From Cenarchaeum sp. (GTDB taxonomy: Archaea; Thermoproteota; Nitrososphaeria; Nitrososphaerales; Nitrosopumilaceae): DNA of 64,000 nt. Both the position numbers and the translations under genes were made by a program. Under the pieces are notes generated by a model, which was given only the letters and a program-made list of their open reading frames with translations, was not told where the DNA came from and made no database searches. Location of the stretch: the NCBI GenBank assembly GCA_965206845.1, contig OZ242221.1, forward strand, positions 1,472,001-1,536,000, in the 5' to 3' direction. Within the stretch, counting starts at the first letter, position 1; each line of letters starts with the position of its first letter. Of the stretch, positions 1-6,174 are shown piece by piece.

Positions 1-626
1 AATCCTCCGACCAGTAGATATGTGGCCTGGTAAAGATCAGGATGCCCGAGCAGTCCGTGCACCGCAAGGCCGACAAATGCTATGACCAGCAGGGCAGGCT
101 GGGAGCTGATCGCGACCTCCTTCATCTTCATTCCCATGGCGAGTATCATGAACGGCACGATGACGACGCCTCCCCCGATTCCAAAAAAGCTGGATACGAT
201 TCCAGCGGAAATGCTGGCCATCGTCATCATGACTGGCATGAGCCGTGTGGATCTGCTGGCTCCCCCCTTTCATCTTGCCCCTGAACAGCATGTACGCGCT
301 CACCGCAAGTATGCTGCCAAGCAGAATCTTGAAAAGGTCCGACTCGGCATGCTGCGCCAGAAGCGCTCCAAGCGCCGTGCCTGGAATCGACACGAGTCCT
401 AGCTTTAATCCCAGCGAGTACTTGATCCTCCGCTTCAGTGCGTGGGTGACCGTGGCTCCGCTGAGGTTGCCGAATGTGCCAAAGAGGCTGTTGCTTGCAA
501 CCAGTGAGGGGGAAGTCCCAGAAACGTCAGGACGGGGGCTATCATGACTCCTCCACCAAAGCCCACCATGGATCCTGCGGCGCCTGCGCCAAACCCCAGC
601 AGGATCAGCCACAGATCCTTAAACAC
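1..626 (-). CDS. TSUP/TauE-SafE (sulfite exporter family) membrane protein; two compensating 1-nt homopolymer frameshifts; runs off window edge
   Basis: GSMVGFGGG motif in ORF 435..626, middle part in ORF 37..612, and a second SSFFGIGGGVVIVP motif back in the first frame (ATG at 239). Shifts fall at the G5 run (~508-512) and C6 run (~262-267). Confidence 0.75.
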
Positions 627-717
627 GCGATTGGCTGTAACTGTCGCTATGTTTGCAGTTCGATCTTAGCCTTCCCTGTTGATTACGTTTTTTAATGGAT
701 GCCCGATCACCACATCT

Positions 718-2352
718 ATGCAGTCTGTCGTTCTGACCGAGCTGGGAGTCATAGTCCTGCAGGATCAAAAGTGCATCAAGAGCTTTCCCTTTGACAGTCC
801 GGCTGCTGACTATGTCAGGGCAAAGGACGGGGACGGCCCTGACGGGTTGGCCGGGTACATCGGGTCGTCTGGAGAGGACTTTAAGACTGACCGCGTTTCC
901 ATGTGCGACGCCCTGAAGAAGATATCCAATAACATACAGATGATGAGCGAGGCCGAGATCGAGGATATCCAGTCGTCAAAGCTTCAGATGCTGGTCGATG
1001 CCGGTTTTGCACAGAATCCCGGCGATGCCATGGACAGGCTGAGGGACTTTGCAGTGCAGCTGTCGTCCCTGAAGATCGCGCAGACATCAGAGAGCGCGGA
1101 TCTGCATATAATCCAGGCAATCGGGGCGCTAGACGAGATAGACCGGGACATCAACATCAAGGGCGCCAGAGTGAGGGAGTGGTACGGGCTACACTTTCCA
1201 GAGCTGGAGAACACGGTAGACAGCATCAGCGGATACGCGCGCATAGCTGCGGCCGGGGGCAGAGGGGATCTCACTGCAGAGATCATAGAGGATGCAGGAT
1301 TTCCCCCGGAGAAGGTCGAGATGCTCTCGGTGGTATCTGAGAACAGCAGGGGCGGCGACATATCAGATGAGAACCTGGCAATCGTGCAGGCGCTGGCATG
1401 CCAGGTCTTGGAGCTCTACAGGCTCCGAGCAAAGATCGAGGAGCGCGTCGAGTCTGCCATGGAGGAGATGGCTCCTAACGTTACCGCAGTGCTAGGCGCG
1501 GCAGTCGGGGCAAGAATACTTGCCAGGGCGGGCAGCCTGAAGAGGCTGGCCATGATGCCGTCAAGCACAATTCAGATACTGGGGGCAGAGAAGGCCCTCT
1601 TCAGATCAATGAAGTCAGGCTCGCAGCCGCCAAAGCACGGGTTACTGTTCCAGCATCACATGGTGCATGCGGCTCCACGGTGGCAGCGCGGAAAGATAGC
1701 CCGCACGGTTGCGGCAAAGGCCGCAATTGCGGCCAGAGTTGACCTGCACCAGGCAGGACTCAACGAGACCCTGCTGGAGAAGCTCAATGTAAGAATAAAG
1801 GAGATTGGTGAAAAGTTCGCAGAGCCTACGCCCAAGAAAAGTCCACCGCAGGACTCTGGCAGGCGCAGGGGGACTGACCGCGGAGACAAGGGAACATACC
1901 GTGGACGCAGGGATGCTGACCGCGGAGGCAGATATTCCGACCACGGGAGTAGGGGTACTAGCCGGGGAGGTAGGTACGCTGACCGCGGGAGCGGCGGTGC
2001 CGACCGCGGAAGCAGGTATGCCGACCGCAGCAGTAGGGGTGCCGACAGCGGAAGCAAGTACGCTGACCGCGGGAGCGGCGGTGCCGACCGCGGAAGCAGG
2101 TATGCCGACCGCGGCAGTAGGGGTGCCGACAGCGGAAGCAAGTACGCTGACCGCGGGAGCGGCGGTGCCGACCGCGGAAGCAGGTATGCCGACCGCGGCA
2201 GTAGGGGTGCCGACAGCGGAGGCAGGGATGCCGATCGCGGGCAGCGGTATGATTCCAGATCGCAGTACAGCCCCAGGCAGGACAGACCGGACGGCCCTGG
2301 CAAGAGGCGTGGGAACGGAAAGAAGCCCAGAAAGAGGTTTGACAAGCGGTAG
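718..2352 (+). CDS. nop5: Box C/D RNP scaffold protein Nop5 (Nop56/58) with long C-terminal RG-rich repeat tail
   Basis: REWYGLHFPEL, PSSTIQILGAEKALF, PPKHGLLFQ and RGKIAR motifs; directly upstream of fibrillarin. Confidence 0.95.
   Translation: MQSVVLTELGVIVLQDQKCIKSFPFDSPAADYVRAKDGDGPDGLAGYIGSSGEDFKTDRVSMCDALKKISNNIQMMSEAEIEDIQSSKLQMLVDAGFAQNPGDAMDRLRDFAVQLSSLKIAQTSESADLHIIQAIGALDEIDRDINIKGARVREWYGLHFPELENTVDSISGYARIAAAGGRGDLTAEIIEDAGFPPEKVEMLSVVSENSRGGDISDENLAIVQALACQVLELYRLRAKIEERVESAMEEMAPNVTAVLGAAVGARILARAGSLKRLAMMPSSTIQILGAEKALFRSMKSGSQPPKHGLLFQHHMVHAAPRWQRGKIARTVAAKAAIAARVDLHQAGLNETLLEKLNVRIKEIGEKFAEPTPKKSPPQDSGRRRGTDRGDKGTYRGRRDADRGGRYSDHGSRGTSRGGRYADRGSGGADRGSRYADRSSRGADSGSKYADRGSGGADRGSRYADRGSRGADSGSKYADRGSGGADRGSRYADRGSRGADSGGRDADRGQRYDSRSQYSPRQDRPDGPGKRRGNGKKPRKRFDKR
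1915..2250 (+). repeat. 16 x 21-bp coding tandem repeat (heptads ADRGSRY/ADRGSGG/ADSGSKY) with an 84-bp higher-order unit
   Basis: Read directly: gccgaccgcggaagcaggtat-type units in exact 21-bp register. Confidence 0.95.
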
Positions 2353-3007
2353 CGAGGTTCTCCGGATTAGGTTCCAGGGATCCATGAGACTTGTCACTGA
2401 GAACCTGGTGCCCGGAAACCGGGTGTACAACGAGAAGCTGATCCTCCAGAAGGGCATCGAGTACAGAACTTGGGAGCCACACAGGAGCAAGCTTGCAGCG
2501 TCGCTCATGAACGGGCTGGAGGAGTTTCCATTCGTGGACGGAACTAGGGTTCTGTATCTGGGCGCGTCCACGGGAACAACGGTAAGCCACATCTCTGATA
2601 TTGTCGGGCCTCGGGGCACGGTTTTTGCGGTGGAGCATGCCAGCAGGGTGGCCCGGGAACTGCTGGACAGGGTGGCCTCGCACCGGCGCAACGTGGTTCC
2701 CATAGTCCAAGACGCGCGGCATCCGCGGGAGTACTCGGGCATGTTCGGGGATGCCGATGTCGTGTACTCTGACATTGCGCAGCCGAACCAGACGGAGATC
2801 GCCCTGGCAAACTGTGACGCATACCTCAAGCGCGGCGGCATGCTCCTGCTGGTAATCAAGAGCAGAAGCATAGACTCGATCGCTTCGTCTGAGAGTGTTG
2901 TAAGGCGAGAGACGGCAAAGCTGCATGAGGGGTTTGAGGTGCTGCAGACCATCGATCTGGAGCCCTACGACAGACACCACGCCATGATCACAGCAAGGCG
3001 CCTCTAG
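2339..3007 (+). CDS. flpA: Fibrillarin-like rRNA/tRNA 2'-O-methyltransferase
   Basis: YRTWEPHRSKLAA, VLYLGASTGTTVSHISD and DIAQPNQ motifs; probable TTG start at 2339 overlapping the nop5 stop. Confidence 0.95.
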   Translation: MTSGSEVLRIRFQGSMRLVTENLVPGNRVYNEKLILQKGIEYRTWEPHRSKLAASLMNGLEEFPFVDGTRVLYLGASTGTTVSHISDIVGPRGTVFAVEHASRVARELLDRVASHRRNVVPIVQDARHPREYSGMFGDADVVYSDIAQPNQTEIALANCDAYLKRGGMLLLVIKSRSIDSIASSESVVRRETAKLHEGFEVLQTIDLEPYDRHHAMITARRL

Positions 3008-3621
3008 AAACCCATGAGGCGCTTGACCGGCTTCCAGCTTGCCCTGACAAACCCGGGAACCTCGTTGTTCTTGGCTATGTATTCCCGCACAAACCTGACG
3101 GTCTTTGCATCTGACGGGTAGCCGCTTCCCAGGTCGTGTCTCCTTCGCAGCCTGGCAATGGATCTGTCACGGGCAACCTTGGCTAGGATCGACGCGGCAG
3201 ACACCACGACAAAACGACTGTCGGCGCGGTGGTACGAGTGCACCATGCTGTTGCGCGACAGGCGCGACACCTCGTTGCCGAACCGCTCTGTGTTGACATC
3301 GCATGAGTCCACGTAGGACGGGTTGGGTCCCAGCCTTGCTATTACCATGGCCATGTATTTTGCCTCCAGGTGGTTCAGCTGGTGCTTTGAGACGCTCCGG
3401 TCTATGGTGCTGGGCCGGATCCTTGCAATGCAGTAGTCCTCGGCCGACTCGATGATCTTCGGGTACAGCTCCTCGCGTCTCTTGGGACTGAGCCTTTTGG
3501 AGTCCCTTACGCCAAGATCCGACAGTGTGTGCAGCATGGAGCGCCTGATCGAGACGCCGGCGATGACCAGCGGCCCCAGCATTGAGCCCCTGCCTGCATC
3601 ATCCACTCCTGAGACTATCAC
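3004..3621 (-). CDS. rnhB: Ribonuclease HII
   Basis: GVDDAGRGSMLGPLV, RDSKRLS, VSAASILAKVARD and GSGYPSD motifs. Confidence 0.95.
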   Translation of the reverse strand: MIVSGVDDAGRGSMLGPLVIAGVSIRRSMLHTLSDLGVRDSKRLSPKRREELYPKIIESAEDYCIARIRPSTIDRSVSKHQLNHLEAKYMAMVIARLGPNPSYVDSCDVNTERFGNEVSRLSRNSMVHSYHRADSRFVVVSAASILAKVARDRSIARLRRRHDLGSGYPSDAKTVRFVREYIAKNNEVPGFVRASWKPVKRLMGF

Positions 3622-3687: not shown

Positions 3688-6174
3688 CTACTGTCCCATC
3701 CTGTCGAATAGTCCGCTCAGGCCGGCCTGTGCGTCTACGTTTTTGGGGTCGATCCTAAGCGCGCTCCTAAAGCACACAGCGGCGTCCGCGTACTTTTTCA
3801 TCCCGTCAAGGGACATGCCCTTGCCCGCATACGCATGCGCGTACCCGGGTTCAATCTCGATTGTGTACTCAAAGCACACCATGGCTGCCCTGTGCCTTCC
3901 CAGACCGAGAAGGGACATGCCCTTGCCGCAGCGCGCATCAGGGTCCATGCTGTTGGCAGCAAGTGCACGATCAAAGCACTTCATCGCATCCTTGTACCTT
4001 CCCTCGGCGTTGAGGGTTCTGCCATTGAGGACATGCTCACTCATGTTCCTGCCAGCAGTCGCCTGCTTCTGGCCATATCTCCACGCATCCTCGTTCCTGC
4101 CTATGTGTGAGGCAACGTGCTTTCTGCGCTCGAGCAGATCATCGTTTCCTGGATCCAGCTCAAGCGCCGCATCAAGGCTTGCCAGCGCATCCCCGTACCT
4201 GCCCATCTCGTGAAGCAACTCGCCCCTTACGCTGTGTGCATGGGTGTTTTCAGGATCCAGCTCAAGCGCCGCATCAAGGCTTGCCAGCGCATCCCCGTAC
4301 CTGCCCGTCTCGTGAAGCAACTCGCCCCTTACGCTGTGTGCATGGGTGTTTTCAGGATCCAGCTCAAGCGCCGCATCAAGGCTTGCCAGCGCATCCCCGT
4401 ATCTGCGCATATCCGCGAGGGACGTCCCCCGGTGCATGTGTGCTATCGGGTGCTTGGGATCCAGCGCAAGCGCCGCATCAAAGCTTGCCAGCGCATCCCC
4501 GTGTCTGCGTATGCTCTCGAGGCACAACCCCCGACATATGTGCATATCTGCATCATTCGAATTCGCCTCAAGCGCCGCATCAAAGCTTGCCAGCGCATCC
4601 CTGTACCTGCCCATCTCGTAGAGCACCATGCCCCTTTCCTTGCGCGCTCGGACGCTTTTGGGATCCAGCGCAAGCGCCGCATCAAGGCTTGCCAGCGCGT
4701 CCTCGTACATTTTCATGCCAAAGAGGCACTCACCGCGATTGCTGTGCATGACTTCATTATCGGGATCCAGCTCAAGCGCCGCATCAAAGCTTGCCAGCGC
4801 ATCCTCGTACATTTTCATGCCAAAGAGGCACTCACCGCGATTGCTGTGCATGACTTCATTATCGGGATCCAGCTCAAGCGCCGCATCAAAGCTTGCCAGC
4901 GCATCCTCGTACCTGCCCATCTCGCTGAGCACTACGCCCCTTTCGTTGTGTATGTGTGGGTGCTTGGGATCCAGCTCAAGCGCCGCATCAAGGCTTGCCA
5001 GCGCGTCCTCGTACATTTTCATGCCAAAGAGGCACTCACCGCGATTGCTGTGCATGACTTCATTATCGGGATCCAGCTCAAGCGCCGCATCAAAGCTTGC
5101 CAGCGCATCCTCGTACCTGCCCATCTTGCTGAGCGCTATGCCCCTTTCGTTGTGTATGTGTGGGTGCTTGGGATCCAGCTCAAGCGCCGCATCAAAGCTT
5201 GCCAGCGCATCCCCGTGCCTGCCCATCTCGCGGAGCGTTATGCCCCTTTCGCCGTGTATATAGGAATACTCGGGATCCAGCTCAAGCGCCGCATCAAAGC
5301 TTGCCAGCGCATCCCCATGCCTGCCCATCTCGTGCAGCACCTCGCCTTTTTCGCCGTGTATATAGGAATACTCGGGATCCAGCTCAAGCGCCGCATCAAA
5401 GCTTGCCAGCGCATCCCCGTACCTGCCCATCTCGTGCAGCACCTCGCCTTTTTCGCCGTGCACGTGGGCGTATTCGGGATCCAGCTCAAGCGCCGCATCA
5501 AAGCTTGCCAGCGCATCCCCATGCCTGCCCATCTCGTGCAGCACCTCTCCCTTTTCCTTGAGCACATGGGCATTTTCGGGCTCCAGCTCAAGCGCCGCAT
5601 CAAAGCTTGCCAGCGCATCCCCATGCCTGCCCATCTCGTGCAGCACCTCTCCCTTTTCCTTGAGCACATGGGCATTTTCGGGCTCCAGCTCAAGCGCCGC
5701 ATCAAAGCTTGCCAGCGCATCCCCATGCCTGCCCATCTCGTGCAGCACCTCTCCCTTTTCCTTGAGCACATGGGCATTTTCGGGCTCCAGCTCAAGCGCC
5801 GCATCAAAGCTTGCCAGCGCTCCCTTGTTTCTTCCCATCCGACTAAGAGCCACGGCTCTACAGTAGTGCGCGTCTACATGCTTCGGATCCAGCGCAAGCG
5901 CCGCATCAAAGCTTGCCAGCGCCTTACCGTGCCTTTCTAGGCCAAGGAATGACCGGCCAAGAAGGTTGTGGACGTCTGCCTGCCCTGGATCGATTGCAAT
6001 CATTTCGTTGAACATTTTTGCCGCATCCTTGTACCTTTCTAGGTTGAGAAAGGCCACGCCGGCTGCACGGCGTGCCCACAGGCCACTGGGATCTACCTCG
6101 TGACTCAATCCACACCAGTCCTGCCGTGTATCCTTTGATGCGCCATTGCATGCCTTCTGGCATGTGGGATCCAT
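3688..6174 (-). CDS. Tetratricopeptide-repeat protein (~22 TPRs)
   Basis: 34-aa repeats G..L..MGRY.DALASFDAALELDP throughout; no catalytic domain seen. Confidence 0.95.
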   Translation of the reverse strand: MDPTCQKACNGASKDTRQDWCGLSHEVDPSGLWARRAAGVAFLNLERYKDAAKMFNEMIAIDPGQADVHNLLGRSFLGLERHGKALASFDAALALDPKHVDAHYCRAVALSRMGRNKGALASFDAALELEPENAHVLKEKGEVLHEMGRHGDALASFDAALELEPENAHVLKEKGEVLHEMGRHGDALASFDAALELEPENAHVLKEKGEVLHEMGRHGDALASFDAALELDPEYAHVHGEKGEVLHEMGRYGDALASFDAALELDPEYSYIHGEKGEVLHEMGRHGDALASFDAALELDPEYSYIHGERGITLREMGRHGDALASFDAALELDPKHPHIHNERGIALSKMGRYEDALASFDAALELDPDNEVMHSNRGECLFGMKMYEDALASLDAALELDPKHPHIHNERGVVLSEMGRYEDALASFDAALELDPDNEVMHSNRGECLFGMKMYEDALASFDAALELDPDNEVMHSNRGECLFGMKMYEDALASLDAALALDPKSVRARKERGMVLYEMGRYRDALASFDAALEANSNDADMHICRGLCLESIRRHGDALASFDAALALDPKHPIAHMHRGTSLADMRRYGDALASLDAALELDPENTHAHSVRGELLHETGRYGDALASLDAALELDPENTHAHSVRGELLHEMGRYGDALASLDAALELDPGNDDLLERRKHVASHIGRNEDAWRYGQKQATAGRNMSEHVLNGRTLNAEGRYKDAMKCFDRALAANSMDPDARCGKGMSLLGLGRHRAAMVCFEYTIEIEPGYAHAYAGKGMSLDGMKKYADAAVCFRSALRIDPKNVDAQAGLSGLFDRMGQ
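4161..5922 (-). repeat. 18 copies of a near-invariant 28-bp cassette at exact 102-bp spacing inside the TPR gene
   Basis: caagcgccgcatcaa(a/g)gcttgccagcgc at 4161 ... 5895; the difference of 1734 equals 17 x 102. Confidence 0.95.

What the first reader, a model, noticed from the sequence alone, without database searches (positions are those of the whole stretch)
1840..2400. Nop5 carries a 16-heptad RG/Tyr low-complexity tail directly abutting a GAR-less fibrillarin
Seen: after the Nop domain come 16 exact heptads (ADRGSRY, ADRGSGG, ADSGSKY...) with Tyr in almost every second heptad and a recently triplicated 84-bp unit, then a basic KRRGNGKKPRKR end. The fibrillarin start (TTG 2339) overlaps this end in the +1 frame at AGG TTT GAC. 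Known: eukaryotic fibrillarin has an N-terminal Gly/Arg-rich (GAR) disordered domain that drives nucleolar condensation, and archaeal fibrillarins generally lack it. Arg/Tyr stickers with Gly/Ser spacers are typical of condensate-forming proteins. Inference: here Nop5 may supply the GAR function in trans, giving a length-tunable condensate module for rRNA modification. A single +1 shift or gene-boundary change would place the tail N-terminal to fibrillarin, which is the eukaryotic arrangement.
Basis: partly seen in the sequence, partly recalled or inferred. Interest (0 to 1): 0.7.

Follow-up and report, generated by a model that had tools for sequence, protein, structure and literature searches.

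The report
Arginine-rich repeat tail on archaeal Nop5
The scaffold protein of this archaeon's RNA-guided rRNA-methylation particle ends in a real, floppy, arginine-rich repeat tail whose length changes between strains; such tails are common in its relatives although textbooks say archaeal particles lack them, and what they do is untested.

Summary
Nop5 (window 718-2352) has a Nop domain followed by a 172-residue tail. The tail holds 18 in-register heptads (consensus A-D-R-G-S-R-G/Y, Tyr in 9 of 18). It includes three near-identical 84-nt units and a basic end. Fibrillarin, which has no GAR domain, starts at TTG 2339, in the +1 frame, 14 nt inside nop5.

The tail is not unique. All 120 best homologues (Nitrosopumilaceae-type) carry R/D/G-rich tails of 23-406 aa, and 108 of them have a conserved KKRKKFGRR-like end. 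Fifteen listed members of the 90% identity cluster differ by multiples of 7 aa. The overlapping TTG recurs in 20 of 24 family loci, so it looks like ordinary translational coupling.

By published criteria this tail is not a GAR domain: G/R is 0.97, 56% of residues are neither G nor R, and there are only 2 RGG. It is a well-mixed, net-positive polyampholyte at the position of the eukaryotic Nop56/58 KKE/D tail. Nop5 tails in Methanomethylicia and Bathyarchaeia relatives are much more GAR-like.

Two papers state that archaeal sRNPs lack such disordered domains, and I found no description of these tails. RNA tethering or condensation remains inference. A +1 shift would fuse all of Nop5 to fibrillarin, which is not the eukaryotic arrangement.

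The parts
688..695 (+). TATA-like box (TTTTTTAA) about 23-30 nt upstream of ATG 718; suggests a leaderless nop5 mRNA
   Evidence: Read directly from the sequence. The function is inferred from what I recall of archaeal promoters. The sigma-70 scan found nothing, as expected.
718..2352 (+). nop5 coding sequence (544 aa plus stop)
   Evidence: ORF list. Pfam Nop domain, E 2.5e-66. 6569 homologues at E<=1e-10. The N-terminus MQSVVLTELG aligns with the homologue consensus MYSVILTELG.
1129..1800 (+). Nop domain (aa 138-361)
   Evidence: PF01798, profile positions 2-227 of 228.
1834..2349 (+). Disordered C-terminal tail (aa 373-544, 172 aa): R 22%, G 21.5%, D/E 14%, S 13%, Y/F 6.4%, no aliphatic residues; net charge +24, pI 11.1
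   Evidence: Composition. Charge, pI and kappa. AlphaFold2 pLDDT 28-42 with no secondary structure for 372-544.
1873..2250 (+). Array of 18 heptads (21-nt units), consensus A-D-R-G-S-R-[G/Y]
   Evidence: TRF, direct-repeat family, in-frame parsing.
1978..2229 (+). Three tandem 84-nt (4-heptad) units: 1978-2061, 2062-2145, 2146-2229; 94-98.8% identical
   Evidence: Pairwise differences of 1, 4 and 5 nt.
2251..2349 (+). Non-repetitive basic end DSRSQYSPRQDRPDGPGKRRGNGKKPRKRFDKR; the family-conserved ...KR(K)F(G/D)(K/R)R terminus
   Evidence: 108 of 120 homologue tails end in a [KR][KR].F[GDAES][KR]-type motif; 67 of them end in exactly KKRKKFGRR.
2339..2352 (+). 14-nt overlap of the nop5 end with the fibrillarin start; the TTG is formed by Nop5's Phe codon plus the next base
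   Evidence: A TTG lies at -14, -17, -20 or -11 from the nop5 end in 20 of 24 same-family loci. In 7 of these loci it is the only in-frame start candidate.
2339..3007 (+). Fibrillarin coding sequence (222 aa), no GAR extension
   Evidence: PF01269, E 1.1e-83, protein residues 11-220 on profile positions 14-224. No RG in the first 40 residues. ATG 2384 would remove the conserved N-terminal strand that aligns with FFWIK... in relatives.

Best explanation
Window 718-2352 encodes Nop5, the scaffold of the box C/D sRNP. After its folded core comes a translated, intrinsically disordered C-terminal tail.

The tail is a well-mixed polyampholyte with net charge +24. It is built of A-D-R-G-S-R-G/Y heptads and ends in a family-conserved basic peptide.

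The array grows and shrinks by slippage or unequal recombination of 21-nt and 84-nt units. Length is only weakly constrained. Composition, reading frame and the basic terminus are kept.

Inferred function: Nop5 dimerises, so each particle carries two tails. They act as non-specific electrostatic and RG/Tyr RNA-contact arms that raise the particle's avidity for nascent rRNA and possibly for each other. This would be the archaeal counterpart of the disordered KKE/D tails of eukaryotic Nop56/58, with some RG-motif character.

The overlapping TTG start couples fibrillarin translation to termination of nop5, which would help 1:1 production of the two partners.

Shown: anatomy, frame conservation, family-wide occurrence, strain polymorphism, predicted disorder and composition.

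Inferred: RNA binding, the avidity role, translational coupling and any condensation.
For: - Identity of the two genes: Pfam.
- The repeat array is far from chance: TRF score 505.
- The frame is kept through arrays of very different length. 15 listed members (of 31) of the 90% identity cluster have tails of 138-201 aa. All differ by multiples of 7 aa, and their flanks are almost unchanged (a few point substitutions).
- All 120 best homologues have tails of 23-406 aa. Median R is 24%, D/E 17%, fraction of charged residues 0.59, net charge per residue +0.23. 108 of 120 keep the basic F-containing terminus.
- Of 56 tails of 80 aa or more, 32 are clearly periodic, and 25 of those 32 have period 7, 14 or 28.
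- Nitrosopumilus-type repeats such as RRDDRGG and GDRRREG are different units of similar composition. This argues for selection on protein composition.
- pN/pS among the 12 distinct 21-nt units is 0.49 (rough).
- AlphaFold2 gives pLDDT 28-42 and no secondary structure for residues 372-544.
- Tail pI is 11.1 and net charge +24; the core has pI 5.3 and net charge -10.
- A 452-nt contig from a run labelled RNA spans the end of the Nop domain and runs into the repeats.
- Junction: the TTG overlap occurs in 20 of 24 family loci, and the fibrillarin frame is +1 in 28 of 30 loci.
Against: - There is no experimental or proteomic evidence here that the tail binds RNA or affects methylation.
- The same-genus genome sampled has only a 23-aa tail. 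Across 24 genera of the family tails range from 23 to 355 aa. A long array is therefore not required for Nop5 function.
- Multiples-of-7 differences are what slippage of a 21-nt repeat gives anyway. Some of the differences could also come from collapse of repeats in short-read assemblies.
- The similar composition of independent expansions could partly reflect descent from one ancestral R/D/G-rich segment rather than selection.
- The tail is Arg-based with well-mixed charges: kappa about 0.11, against 0.17 +/- 0.03 for shuffles. The KKE/D tails are Lys-based, so the analogy is physical and positional, not sequence homology.
- The RNA-library contig may derive from contaminating DNA. It also comes from a variant strain: 12 other letters and a 63-nt insertion.
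Confidence: 0.6

Rival explanations
1. The tail is a GAR domain supplied in trans to a fibrillarin that lacks one. It drives phase separation of the rRNA-modification machinery into a proto-nucleolar condensate, tuned by repeat number.
For: - The tail has 19 RG dipeptides, Tyr in 9 of 18 heptads, no aliphatic residues, and stretches matching the permissive GAR-motif-finder spacing pattern.
- It is predicted disordered.
- There are two tails per Nop5 dimer, so each particle is multivalent.
- Methanomethylicia and Bathyarchaeia Nop5 tails are truly G/R/F-Y rich: G up to 45%, up to 7 RGG, motifs such as GGGGFRDRRGGGGYGG; 59 of 119 tails are 80 aa or longer.
- A hypothesis paper proposes a phase-separated primitive nucleolus in archaeal ancestors (PMC10732040, passages read).
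Against: - Published GAR features are not met (against PMC9957100, section 3 part 1 read). G/R is 0.97 against about 2.1-4.7. Non-GR residues are 56% against generally under 20%. Only 50% of R are followed by G, against all. There are 2 RGG against mostly RGG.
- 14% acidic residues with well-mixed charges give a polyampholyte, not a polycation.
- Many family members use RRDDRGG or GDRRREG repeats with no aromatic residue in the unit.
- A congener has a 23-aa tail.
- No condensate assay, localisation data or Arg-methylation data exist.
Confidence: 0.2
2. The array is largely neutral. It is slippage-prone low-complexity DNA that is tolerated as a linker. Selection acts only to keep the reading frame open, so that the conserved basic terminus is made and ribosomes terminate just after the fibrillarin TTG.
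For: - Length varies greatly: 23-406 aa.
- Close strains are polymorphic.
- Both length variants occur in one run.
- A congener has a short tail.
- The 84-nt units are near-identical, which points to very recent expansion.
- The best conserved elements are the terminus and the TTG.
Against: - Tail composition is held across the whole family, with quite different repeat units and codons, and no tail drifts to a hydrophobic composition. Median LIVMC is 1.9%. The few high values belong to frameshifted predictions such as P0020.
- pN/pS among units is 0.49.
- R-rich tails also occur on Nop5 in other Thermoproteota lineages.
- All 24 family genera sampled keep at least 23 residues of basic tail.
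Confidence: 0.18
3. Artefact: the array is an assembly error, or it is not translated in the Nop5 frame. For example, the fibrillarin frame, which is open from 1805, would be the real one.
For: - No contig of the 4 runs laid spans the whole array.
- All three forward frames and the reverse frames are open across the repeats.
- Gene callers have produced 'long fibrillarins' of 390-590 aa by reading the +1 frame.
Against: - The flanks and interior units are recovered from runs of three different studies.
- 31 cluster members from many contigs share the architecture.
- The Nop5-frame terminus is conserved after arrays of any length.
- The +1-frame products have unrelated compositions in different lineages: A/T/G/V here, VEEKVVEEK or MTEEDSA elsewhere.
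- In 7 family loci a stop lies just upstream, so the overlapping TTG is the only possible fibrillarin start.
Confidence: 0.02

Closest known systems
KKE/D C-terminal domains of eukaryotic Nop56 and Nop58 (PMC11528048; Gautier et al. 1997, seen only as a cited reference)
   Same: - Same protein family and same position, directly after the Nop domain at the C-terminus.
- Long, disordered, strong polyampholyte with positive net charge (fraction of charged residues 0.42, net charge per residue +0.14).
- Two copies per particle.
- Individually dispensable in yeast; here a congener has a short tail.
   Different: - Arg-based (R 22%, K 6%) instead of Lys-based.
- Contains G/S spacers, RG dipeptides and Tyr.
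- Charges are finely interleaved (kappa about 0.11).
- Built of near-exact tandem heptads whose number is polymorphic between strains.
- No sequence homology was shown.
GAR/RGG domain of eukaryotic fibrillarin, GAR1 and nucleolin (features from PMC9957100)
   Same: - Disordered and Arg/Gly-containing.
- Part of the same box C/D particle.
- 19 RG dipeptides with aromatic residues interspersed.
- Stretches match the permissive motif-finder spacing.
   Different: - G/R 0.97, 56% non-GR residues, only 2 RGG, half of the R not followed by G, 14% Asp, and Tyr rather than Phe.
- It sits on the C-terminus of Nop5, not the N-terminus of fibrillarin.
Nop5 tails of other Nitrosopumilaceae-type archaea (public proteins annotated only as NOP5/NOP56 family protein)
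   Same: - Same gene, same junction with fibrillarin, same basic terminus.
- R/D/G-rich tandem repeats, mostly of period 7 or 14.
- Lengths of 23-406 aa.
   Different: - The unit sequence differs: RRDDRGG, GDRRREG, GSARGDR, and GSRDGYR/GSRESDR in the closest long-tailed group.
- This genome's unit is A-D-R-G-S-R-G/Y.
   Same: Interleaved Arg and Asp/Glu in a disordered, RNA-associated protein region.
   Different: Eukaryotic nuclear-speckle context. Here Gly, Ser and Tyr make up a large share. No test was made.

Membership tests
Nop5/Nop56/Nop58 family (box C/D sRNP scaffold) | Nop (snoRNA-binding) domain | tested here: met
   PF01798, E 2.5e-66, aa 138-361, profile positions 2-227 of 228.
Nop5/Nop56/Nop58 family (box C/D sRNP scaffold) | N-terminal fibrillarin-binding domain and coiled coil before the Nop domain | tested here: inconclusive
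   No separate Pfam hit at E<=0.01. The N-terminus aligns along its length with homologues. AlphaFold2 gives a beta/alpha N-domain (pLDDT 74-86 for residues 1-60) followed by long helices. No structural comparison was run.
Nop5/Nop56/Nop58 family (box C/D sRNP scaffold) | Operon partner fibrillarin immediately downstream | tested here: met
   PF01269, E 1.1e-83, at 2339-3007. The same arrangement is found in all 30 loci examined.
GAR domain (features in PMC9957100) | At least 10 RG/RGG elements, mostly RGG | tested here: not met
   19 RG but only 2 RGG.
GAR domain (features in PMC9957100) | G/R ratio about 2.1-4.7 and non-GR residues generally below about 20% | tested here: not met
   G/R 0.97 and non-GR 56% for the whole tail; 1.15 and 54% for the heptad array.
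GAR domain (features in PMC9957100) | Every Arg followed by Gly; Phe as the main intervening residue | tested here: not met
   50% of R are followed by G. The intervening residues are mainly D, S, A and Y.
GAR domain (features in PMC9957100) | Matches the motif-finder pattern G(0,3)-X(0,1)-R-G(1,2)-G(0,3)-X(0,5)-G(0,3)-X(0,1)-R-G(1,2) | tested here: met
   My regex version finds three stretches: aa 383-431 (49 aa), 450-469 and 478-497. The pattern is permissive.
GAR domain (features in PMC9957100) | Arginine methylation of the RG motifs | not testable with these tools
   This needs mass spectrometry. No search for PRMT homologues was run.
KKE/D lysine-rich disordered domain of snoRNP proteins (PMC11528048) | C-terminal (or N-terminal) disordered extension of a snoRNP core protein | tested here: met
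   The tail follows the Nop domain. pLDDT 28-42.
KKE/D lysine-rich disordered domain of snoRNP proteins (PMC11528048) | Strong polyampholyte (high fraction of charged residues) with positive net charge | tested here: met
   Fraction of charged residues 0.42, net charge per residue +0.14. Family medians are 0.59 and +0.23.
KKE/D lysine-rich disordered domain of snoRNP proteins (PMC11528048) | Lysine-rich, with K and E/D arranged in alternating blocks | tested here: not met
   K 5.8% against R 22%. Charges are more evenly mixed than in shuffles: kappa 0.108 against 0.174 +/- 0.032.

The most novel reading that the evidence does not exclude
Box C/D particles of Thermoproteota (TACK) archaea carry their RG-rich disordered domain on Nop5. 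It ranges from R/D heptads in Nitrosopumilaceae to truly GAR-like G/R/F-Y tails in Methanomethylicia and Bathyarchaeia.

These tails would drive RNA-dependent clustering of the rRNA-modification machinery, a proto-nucleolar condensate whose strength is set by a fast-evolving repeat number.

The repeat DNA lies directly 5' of an overlapping fibrillarin start, and the fibrillarin frame is open across it. A boundary rearrangement in the archaeal ancestor of eukaryotes could then have moved such a domain onto fibrillarin, while Nop56/58 kept a charged tail.
Probability: 0.1. Interest if true: 0.85.

Novelty: new variant of a known kind. Interest (0 to 1): 0.55.

Why it matters
Two recent papers state that archaeal box C/D and H/ACA particles lack the disordered domains that organise the eukaryotic nucleolus.
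- PMC7608942 found no RG-rich region in 148 archaeal proteomes using HMMs.

The data here show that this generalisation does not hold. Long, charged, RG-containing disordered tails sit on Nop5 in a whole family of abundant marine ammonia oxidisers. More GAR-like tails occur in other Thermoproteota lineages.

Cultured Nitrosopumilus species carry such tails; a 556-aa Nop5 is listed under a Nitrosopumilus adriaticus name. It therefore becomes experimentally testable whether disordered tails already helped rRNA modification, or clustered the machinery, before eukaryotes.

There is also a practical point. Gene callers mis-predict 'long fibrillarins' and Nop5-fibrillarin 'fusions' at this locus, because every frame is open across the repeats.

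Tried and rejected
1. **A long N-terminal extension of fibrillarin read from the +1 frame (ORF 1805-3007).** Rejected. Its composition is not conserved between lineages, and stops lie just upstream of the TTG in 7 loci.

2. **Natural tail-fibrillarin fusions.** Among 53 'longer' fibrillarin hits, 9 carry both Pfam domains. Of the 7 I read, 6 switch frame inside the repeats (P0121, P0124, P0129, P0151, P0159, P0163). One (P0170) is a tail-less direct fusion from a distant lineage. P0128 and P0152 were not read. None places an in-frame R-rich tail in front of fibrillarin alone.

3. **Mammalian FBLL1 N-termini (P0168, P0171) as GAR comparators.** My regex found no motif of 30 aa or more in them, so I dropped them and used the published figures instead.

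4. **Proteome-wide scan for R/G-rich windows in all six frames.** It was dominated by off-frame ORFs of this 57% G+C genome. A stricter scan gave only Nop5, one unknown repeat protein and a few weak cases.

5. **Other sRNP core proteins of the genome.** The Gar1-like protein (83 aa) and Cbf5 (332 aa) have no disordered tail.

6. **Read laying.**
   - The contigs break inside the array, so they neither confirm nor refute the three 84-nt copies.
   - Parts without cover are not evidence.
   - The RNA-run contig shows presence in an RNA library only.

7. **Sigma-70 promoter and terminator scan.** Nothing relevant.

8. **Earlier notes of this scan.** None for this place or sequence.

9. **Literature.** Six searches of the held library found no description of thaumarchaeal or other archaeal Nop5 repeat tails. 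Subscription-only papers are not covered. The supplementary tables of PMC7608942 were not opened.
Full report
**1. What is in the sequence**

The + strand of window 679/718-2352 is one open frame. Its product has a Nop domain (PF01798, E 2.5e-66, aa 138-361 counted from ATG 718). The N-terminus MQSVVLTELG matches the homologue consensus. A TTTTTTAA box lies at 688-695, about 23-30 nt before ATG 718. From what I recall of archaeal promoters, this suggests a leaderless mRNA.

After the domain comes a 172-residue tail (aa 373-544, nt 1834-2349). Tandem Repeats Finder reports period 21 x 16.3 copies, period 42 x 7.9 and period 84 x 4.0 (90% matches, score 505). Read in frame, there are 18 consecutive heptads at 1873-2250. 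The consensus is A-D-R-G-S-R-[G/Y], and Tyr occurs in 9 of 18.

The 84-nt triplication is real. The units lie at 1978-2061, 2062-2145 (1 difference) and 2146-2229 (4-5 differences). The protein ends in a non-repetitive basic peptide...GKRRGNGKKPRKRFDKR.

Fibrillarin (PF01269, E 1.1e-83) follows in the +1 frame. Read from TTG 2339 it overlaps nop5 by 14 nt. It has 10 residues before the Pfam match begins and no RG in its first 40 residues.

**2. Neighbours**

- Upstream on the minus strand lie pieces of a TauE/SafE permease in more than one frame.
- Downstream, RNase HII (3004-3621, minus strand) converges on fibrillarin, and the two stop codons overlap.
- A large TPR-repeat protein follows.
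- None of these bears on the finding.

**3. Is the tail real and translated?**

The genome is a single 1.65-Mb contig of 57% G+C. Its Nop5 belongs to a 90% identity cluster of 31 sequences from many contigs. The 15 members listed have tails of 138, 145, 166, 173, 180 or 201 aa (counted from EKFAEP). All differ by whole heptads, and the flanking sequence and basic terminus differ only by occasional point substitutions. This genome lacks three heptads (ADRGGRR ADRGGGG AGRGRRD) that the other 14 have. It has three copies of the 4-heptad unit, as does P0180.

I laid contigs of four public runs on the region. Three are of unstated kind from different studies, and one is labelled metatranscriptomic RNA. 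The tool labels several holders 'sponge metagenome'.
- The contigs recover both flanks and the interior units but break inside the array.
- All four runs contain a form with a 63-nt insertion at 1931.
- In run X1 the inserted and uninserted forms are both present.
- The RNA-run contig (452 nt) runs from the Nop domain into the repeats. This is compatible with transcription but does not prove it.

The strongest argument for translation in the Nop5 frame is conservation. After arrays of any length the same basic, Phe-containing terminus follows in 108 of 120 homologues.

Caveats: slippage of a 21-nt unit gives multiples of 7 aa automatically. Short-read assemblies can also collapse repeats.

**4. 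How general is it?**

The 120 best of 6569 homologues carry source names, where given, such as Nitrosopumilus, Nitrosopumilaceae and Nitrosopumilales (one is named Nitrososphaera sp.). All of them have tails.
- Lengths run from 23 to 406 aa, median 69. 56 are 80 aa or longer and 28 are 150 aa or longer.
- Median composition is R 24%, D/E 17%, G 14%, aromatic 6%, aliphatic 1.9%.
- The fraction of charged residues is 0.59 and net charge per residue is +0.23.
- Repeat units differ between lineages: RRDDRGG, GDRRREG, GSARGDR, GSRDGYR/GSRESDR, RDFRSK and others.
- Among the 32 clearly periodic long tails, 25 have period 7, 14 or 28.

In one genome per genus of the family (24 loci), tails span 23-355 aa. 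The same-genus genome has only 23 aa. In six other families of the same order, tails are 7-61 aa.

In a sample of 201 genomes of the phylum, long Nop5 open frames (450 aa or more) occur in 15 of 29 genomes of the family. They occur sporadically elsewhere.

I fetched six of the long-frame loci from outside the family, and four of them had long R-rich tails. A protein search seeded from one (a relative whose hits are named Methanomethylicus, Methanomethylicaceae and Bathyarchaeota) gave 119 tails, of which 59 are 80 aa or longer and the longest is 272 aa. Many of these are far more GAR-like:
- G 30-45%, R about 20%, F/Y 8-13%, up to 7 RGG, with motifs such as GGGGFRDRRGGGGYGG.
- By my strict cut-offs (G/R of 2 or more, non-GR of 35% or less, 4 or more RGG) only 2 pass.

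Unchecked notes of this scan report Arg/Gly-rich arms at the N-terminus of Micrarchaeota Nop5.

**5. What kind of sequence is this tail?**

| Property | Value |
|---|---|
| R | 22% |
| G | 21.5% |
| S | 13% |
| D/E | 14% |
| A | 8% |
| Y/F | 6.4% |
| Aliphatic residues | none |
| Net charge, tail vs core | +24 vs -10 |
| pI, tail vs core | 11.1 vs 5.3 |
| Charge patterning (kappa), tail vs shuffles | about 0.11 vs 0.17 +/- 0.03 |
| AlphaFold2 (30-sequence alignment), residues 372-544 | pLDDT 28-42, no secondary structure |

The published description of fibrillarin, nucleolin and GAR1 GAR domains (PMC9957100, section 3 part 1 read) gives these features: G/R about 2.1-4.7, non-GR generally under 20%, every R followed by G, mostly RGG, and Phe as the main spacer. 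This tail fails all of them. Its G/R is 0.97, non-GR is 56%, 50% of R are followed by G, and it has 2 RGG against 19 RG, with Tyr, Asp and Ser as spacers. It matches only the permissive motif-finder spacing in three stretches.

The yeast KKE/D tails of Nop56/58 (PMC11528048, passages read) share the position, the disorder, the high charge fraction and the positive net charge. They do not share the lysine basis.

I therefore describe this tail as an Arg-based polyampholyte with RG and Tyr content. It sits at the position of the Nop56/58 tail.

**6. The junction with fibrillarin**

- In 28 of 30 loci fibrillarin is in the +1 frame of nop5.
- In 20 of 24 same-family loci a TTG lies 14 nt (13 loci), 20 nt (5), 17 nt (1) or 11 nt (1) before the end of nop5.
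- The TTG is made by the conserved Phe codon and the next base of Nop5's ...KKFGRR terminus.
- In 7 loci it is the only in-frame start candidate.
- The residues after it align with this genome's LTSGSEVLRIRFQG.

The overlap is a conserved dual-coding junction. I infer that its role is translational coupling of two proteins that form a heterodimer.

Every frame is open across the repeats, so gene callers have produced 390-590-aa 'fibrillarins' that are +1-frame readings of the nop5 repeats. They have also produced Nop+fibrillarin 'fusions' that change frame inside the array. None of these puts an in-frame R-rich tail directly in front of fibrillarin. A +1 slip at the junction would attach the whole of Nop5.

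**7. Mechanism**

Shown:
- a translated-frame, disordered, strongly basic tail;
- rapid copy-number change;
- retention of composition and terminus across the family;
- weak purifying selection among units (pN/pS 0.49, rough).

Inferred: the two tails of a Nop5 dimer add non-specific, multivalent contacts with rRNA. This would raise the local concentration of the particle on nascent transcripts, as was shown genetically for the KKE/D tails in yeast. Self-association or condensation is possible but not indicated by anything I could compute.

The main rival is that the array is mostly neutral slippage. Selection would then act only on frame, terminus and the fibrillarin start. The 23-aa tail of a congener favours that view. 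The family-wide composition argues against pure neutrality.

In this genome the other sRNP core proteins have no such tail: Cbf5 is 332 aa and the Gar1-like protein is 83 aa. A DEAD-box helicase does have an RG-rich C-terminus.

**8. Novelty**

Two papers state that archaeal particles lack lysine-rich and GAR disordered domains (PMC11528048). The second reports that RG-rich regions were not found in 148 archaeal proteomes (PMC7608942). Both were read as passages. Two papers on archaeal or prokaryotic nucleolus-like structures do not mention Nop5 tails in the passages shown (PMC9932318, PMC11896706).

Six searches of the held library found no description. The proteins themselves are public and are annotated simply as NOP5/NOP56 family proteins.

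I rate this as a new variant of a known kind (a charged disordered tail on Nop56/58-family proteins). Its proposed function is unproven.

Noticed in passing
L036 (G128:C4, ORF 595-1890 minus strand) and proteins P0188-P0307: Nop5 of Methanomethylicia/Bathyarchaeia-type archaea carries C-terminal tails of up to 272 aa that are G/R/F-Y rich (for example GGGGFRDRRGGGGYGG). They are much closer to eukaryotic GAR domains than the tail in this window. 59 of 119 tails are 80 aa or longer.
   Followed up: partly
window 3-626, minus strand: Two ORFs (435-626 and 3-239) match different parts of the TauE/SafE sulfite-exporter profile (positions 1-48 and 129-202). A third overlapping ORF lies in another frame. 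The permease upstream of nop5 looks frameshifted, either as a pseudogene or through a sequence error.
   Followed up: no
window 3004-3007: Fibrillarin (+) and RNase HII (-, 3004-3621) converge, and their stop codons overlap within CTAG.
   Followed up: no
window 3688-6174, minus strand: An 828-aa protein made almost entirely of TPR repeats. Many 34-aa units are near-identical, so this is a second highly repetitive gene next to the locus.
   Followed up: no
G000:C1:300248-301606, minus strand (L032:449-1789), outside the window: A DEAD-box helicase (PF00270 plus PF00271) with an RG-rich C-terminal tail of about 60 aa (...GRGQPGRYGRGGGDGRGRGDARDGRS...). It is a second RNA enzyme of this genome with an Arg/Gly tail.
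   Followed up: partly
G000:C1 about 542000-543260, minus strand (L031:498-1760), outside the window: A 420-aa ORF with no Pfam match. It carries about ten near-exact tandem copies of a roughly 22-aa R/D/S/P/Y-rich unit (…DRPARPSYRNSSRDRPERPSSG…). This is another recently expanded, charged, Tyr-containing repeat.
   Followed up: partly
P0170 (563 aa): A direct, tail-less Nop5-fibrillarin fusion protein (both Pfam domains) from a distant lineage whose sequence is rich in K, I and N. It looks in frame rather than frameshifted.
   Followed up: no
P0122-P0157, read in P0122, P0130, P0148, P0149, P0155: Public 'fibrillarins' of 390-590 aa are gene-caller artefacts. Their N-terminal halves are the +1-frame reading of the nop5 tail repeats, for example VEEKVVEEK from GGRREGG-coding DNA.
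   Followed up: yes
P0032 (592 aa): One Nop5 tail contains an embedded CxxC...CxxC zinc-ribbon-like segment (precomputed Pfam PF23477) between R/D/G repeats.
   Followed up: no
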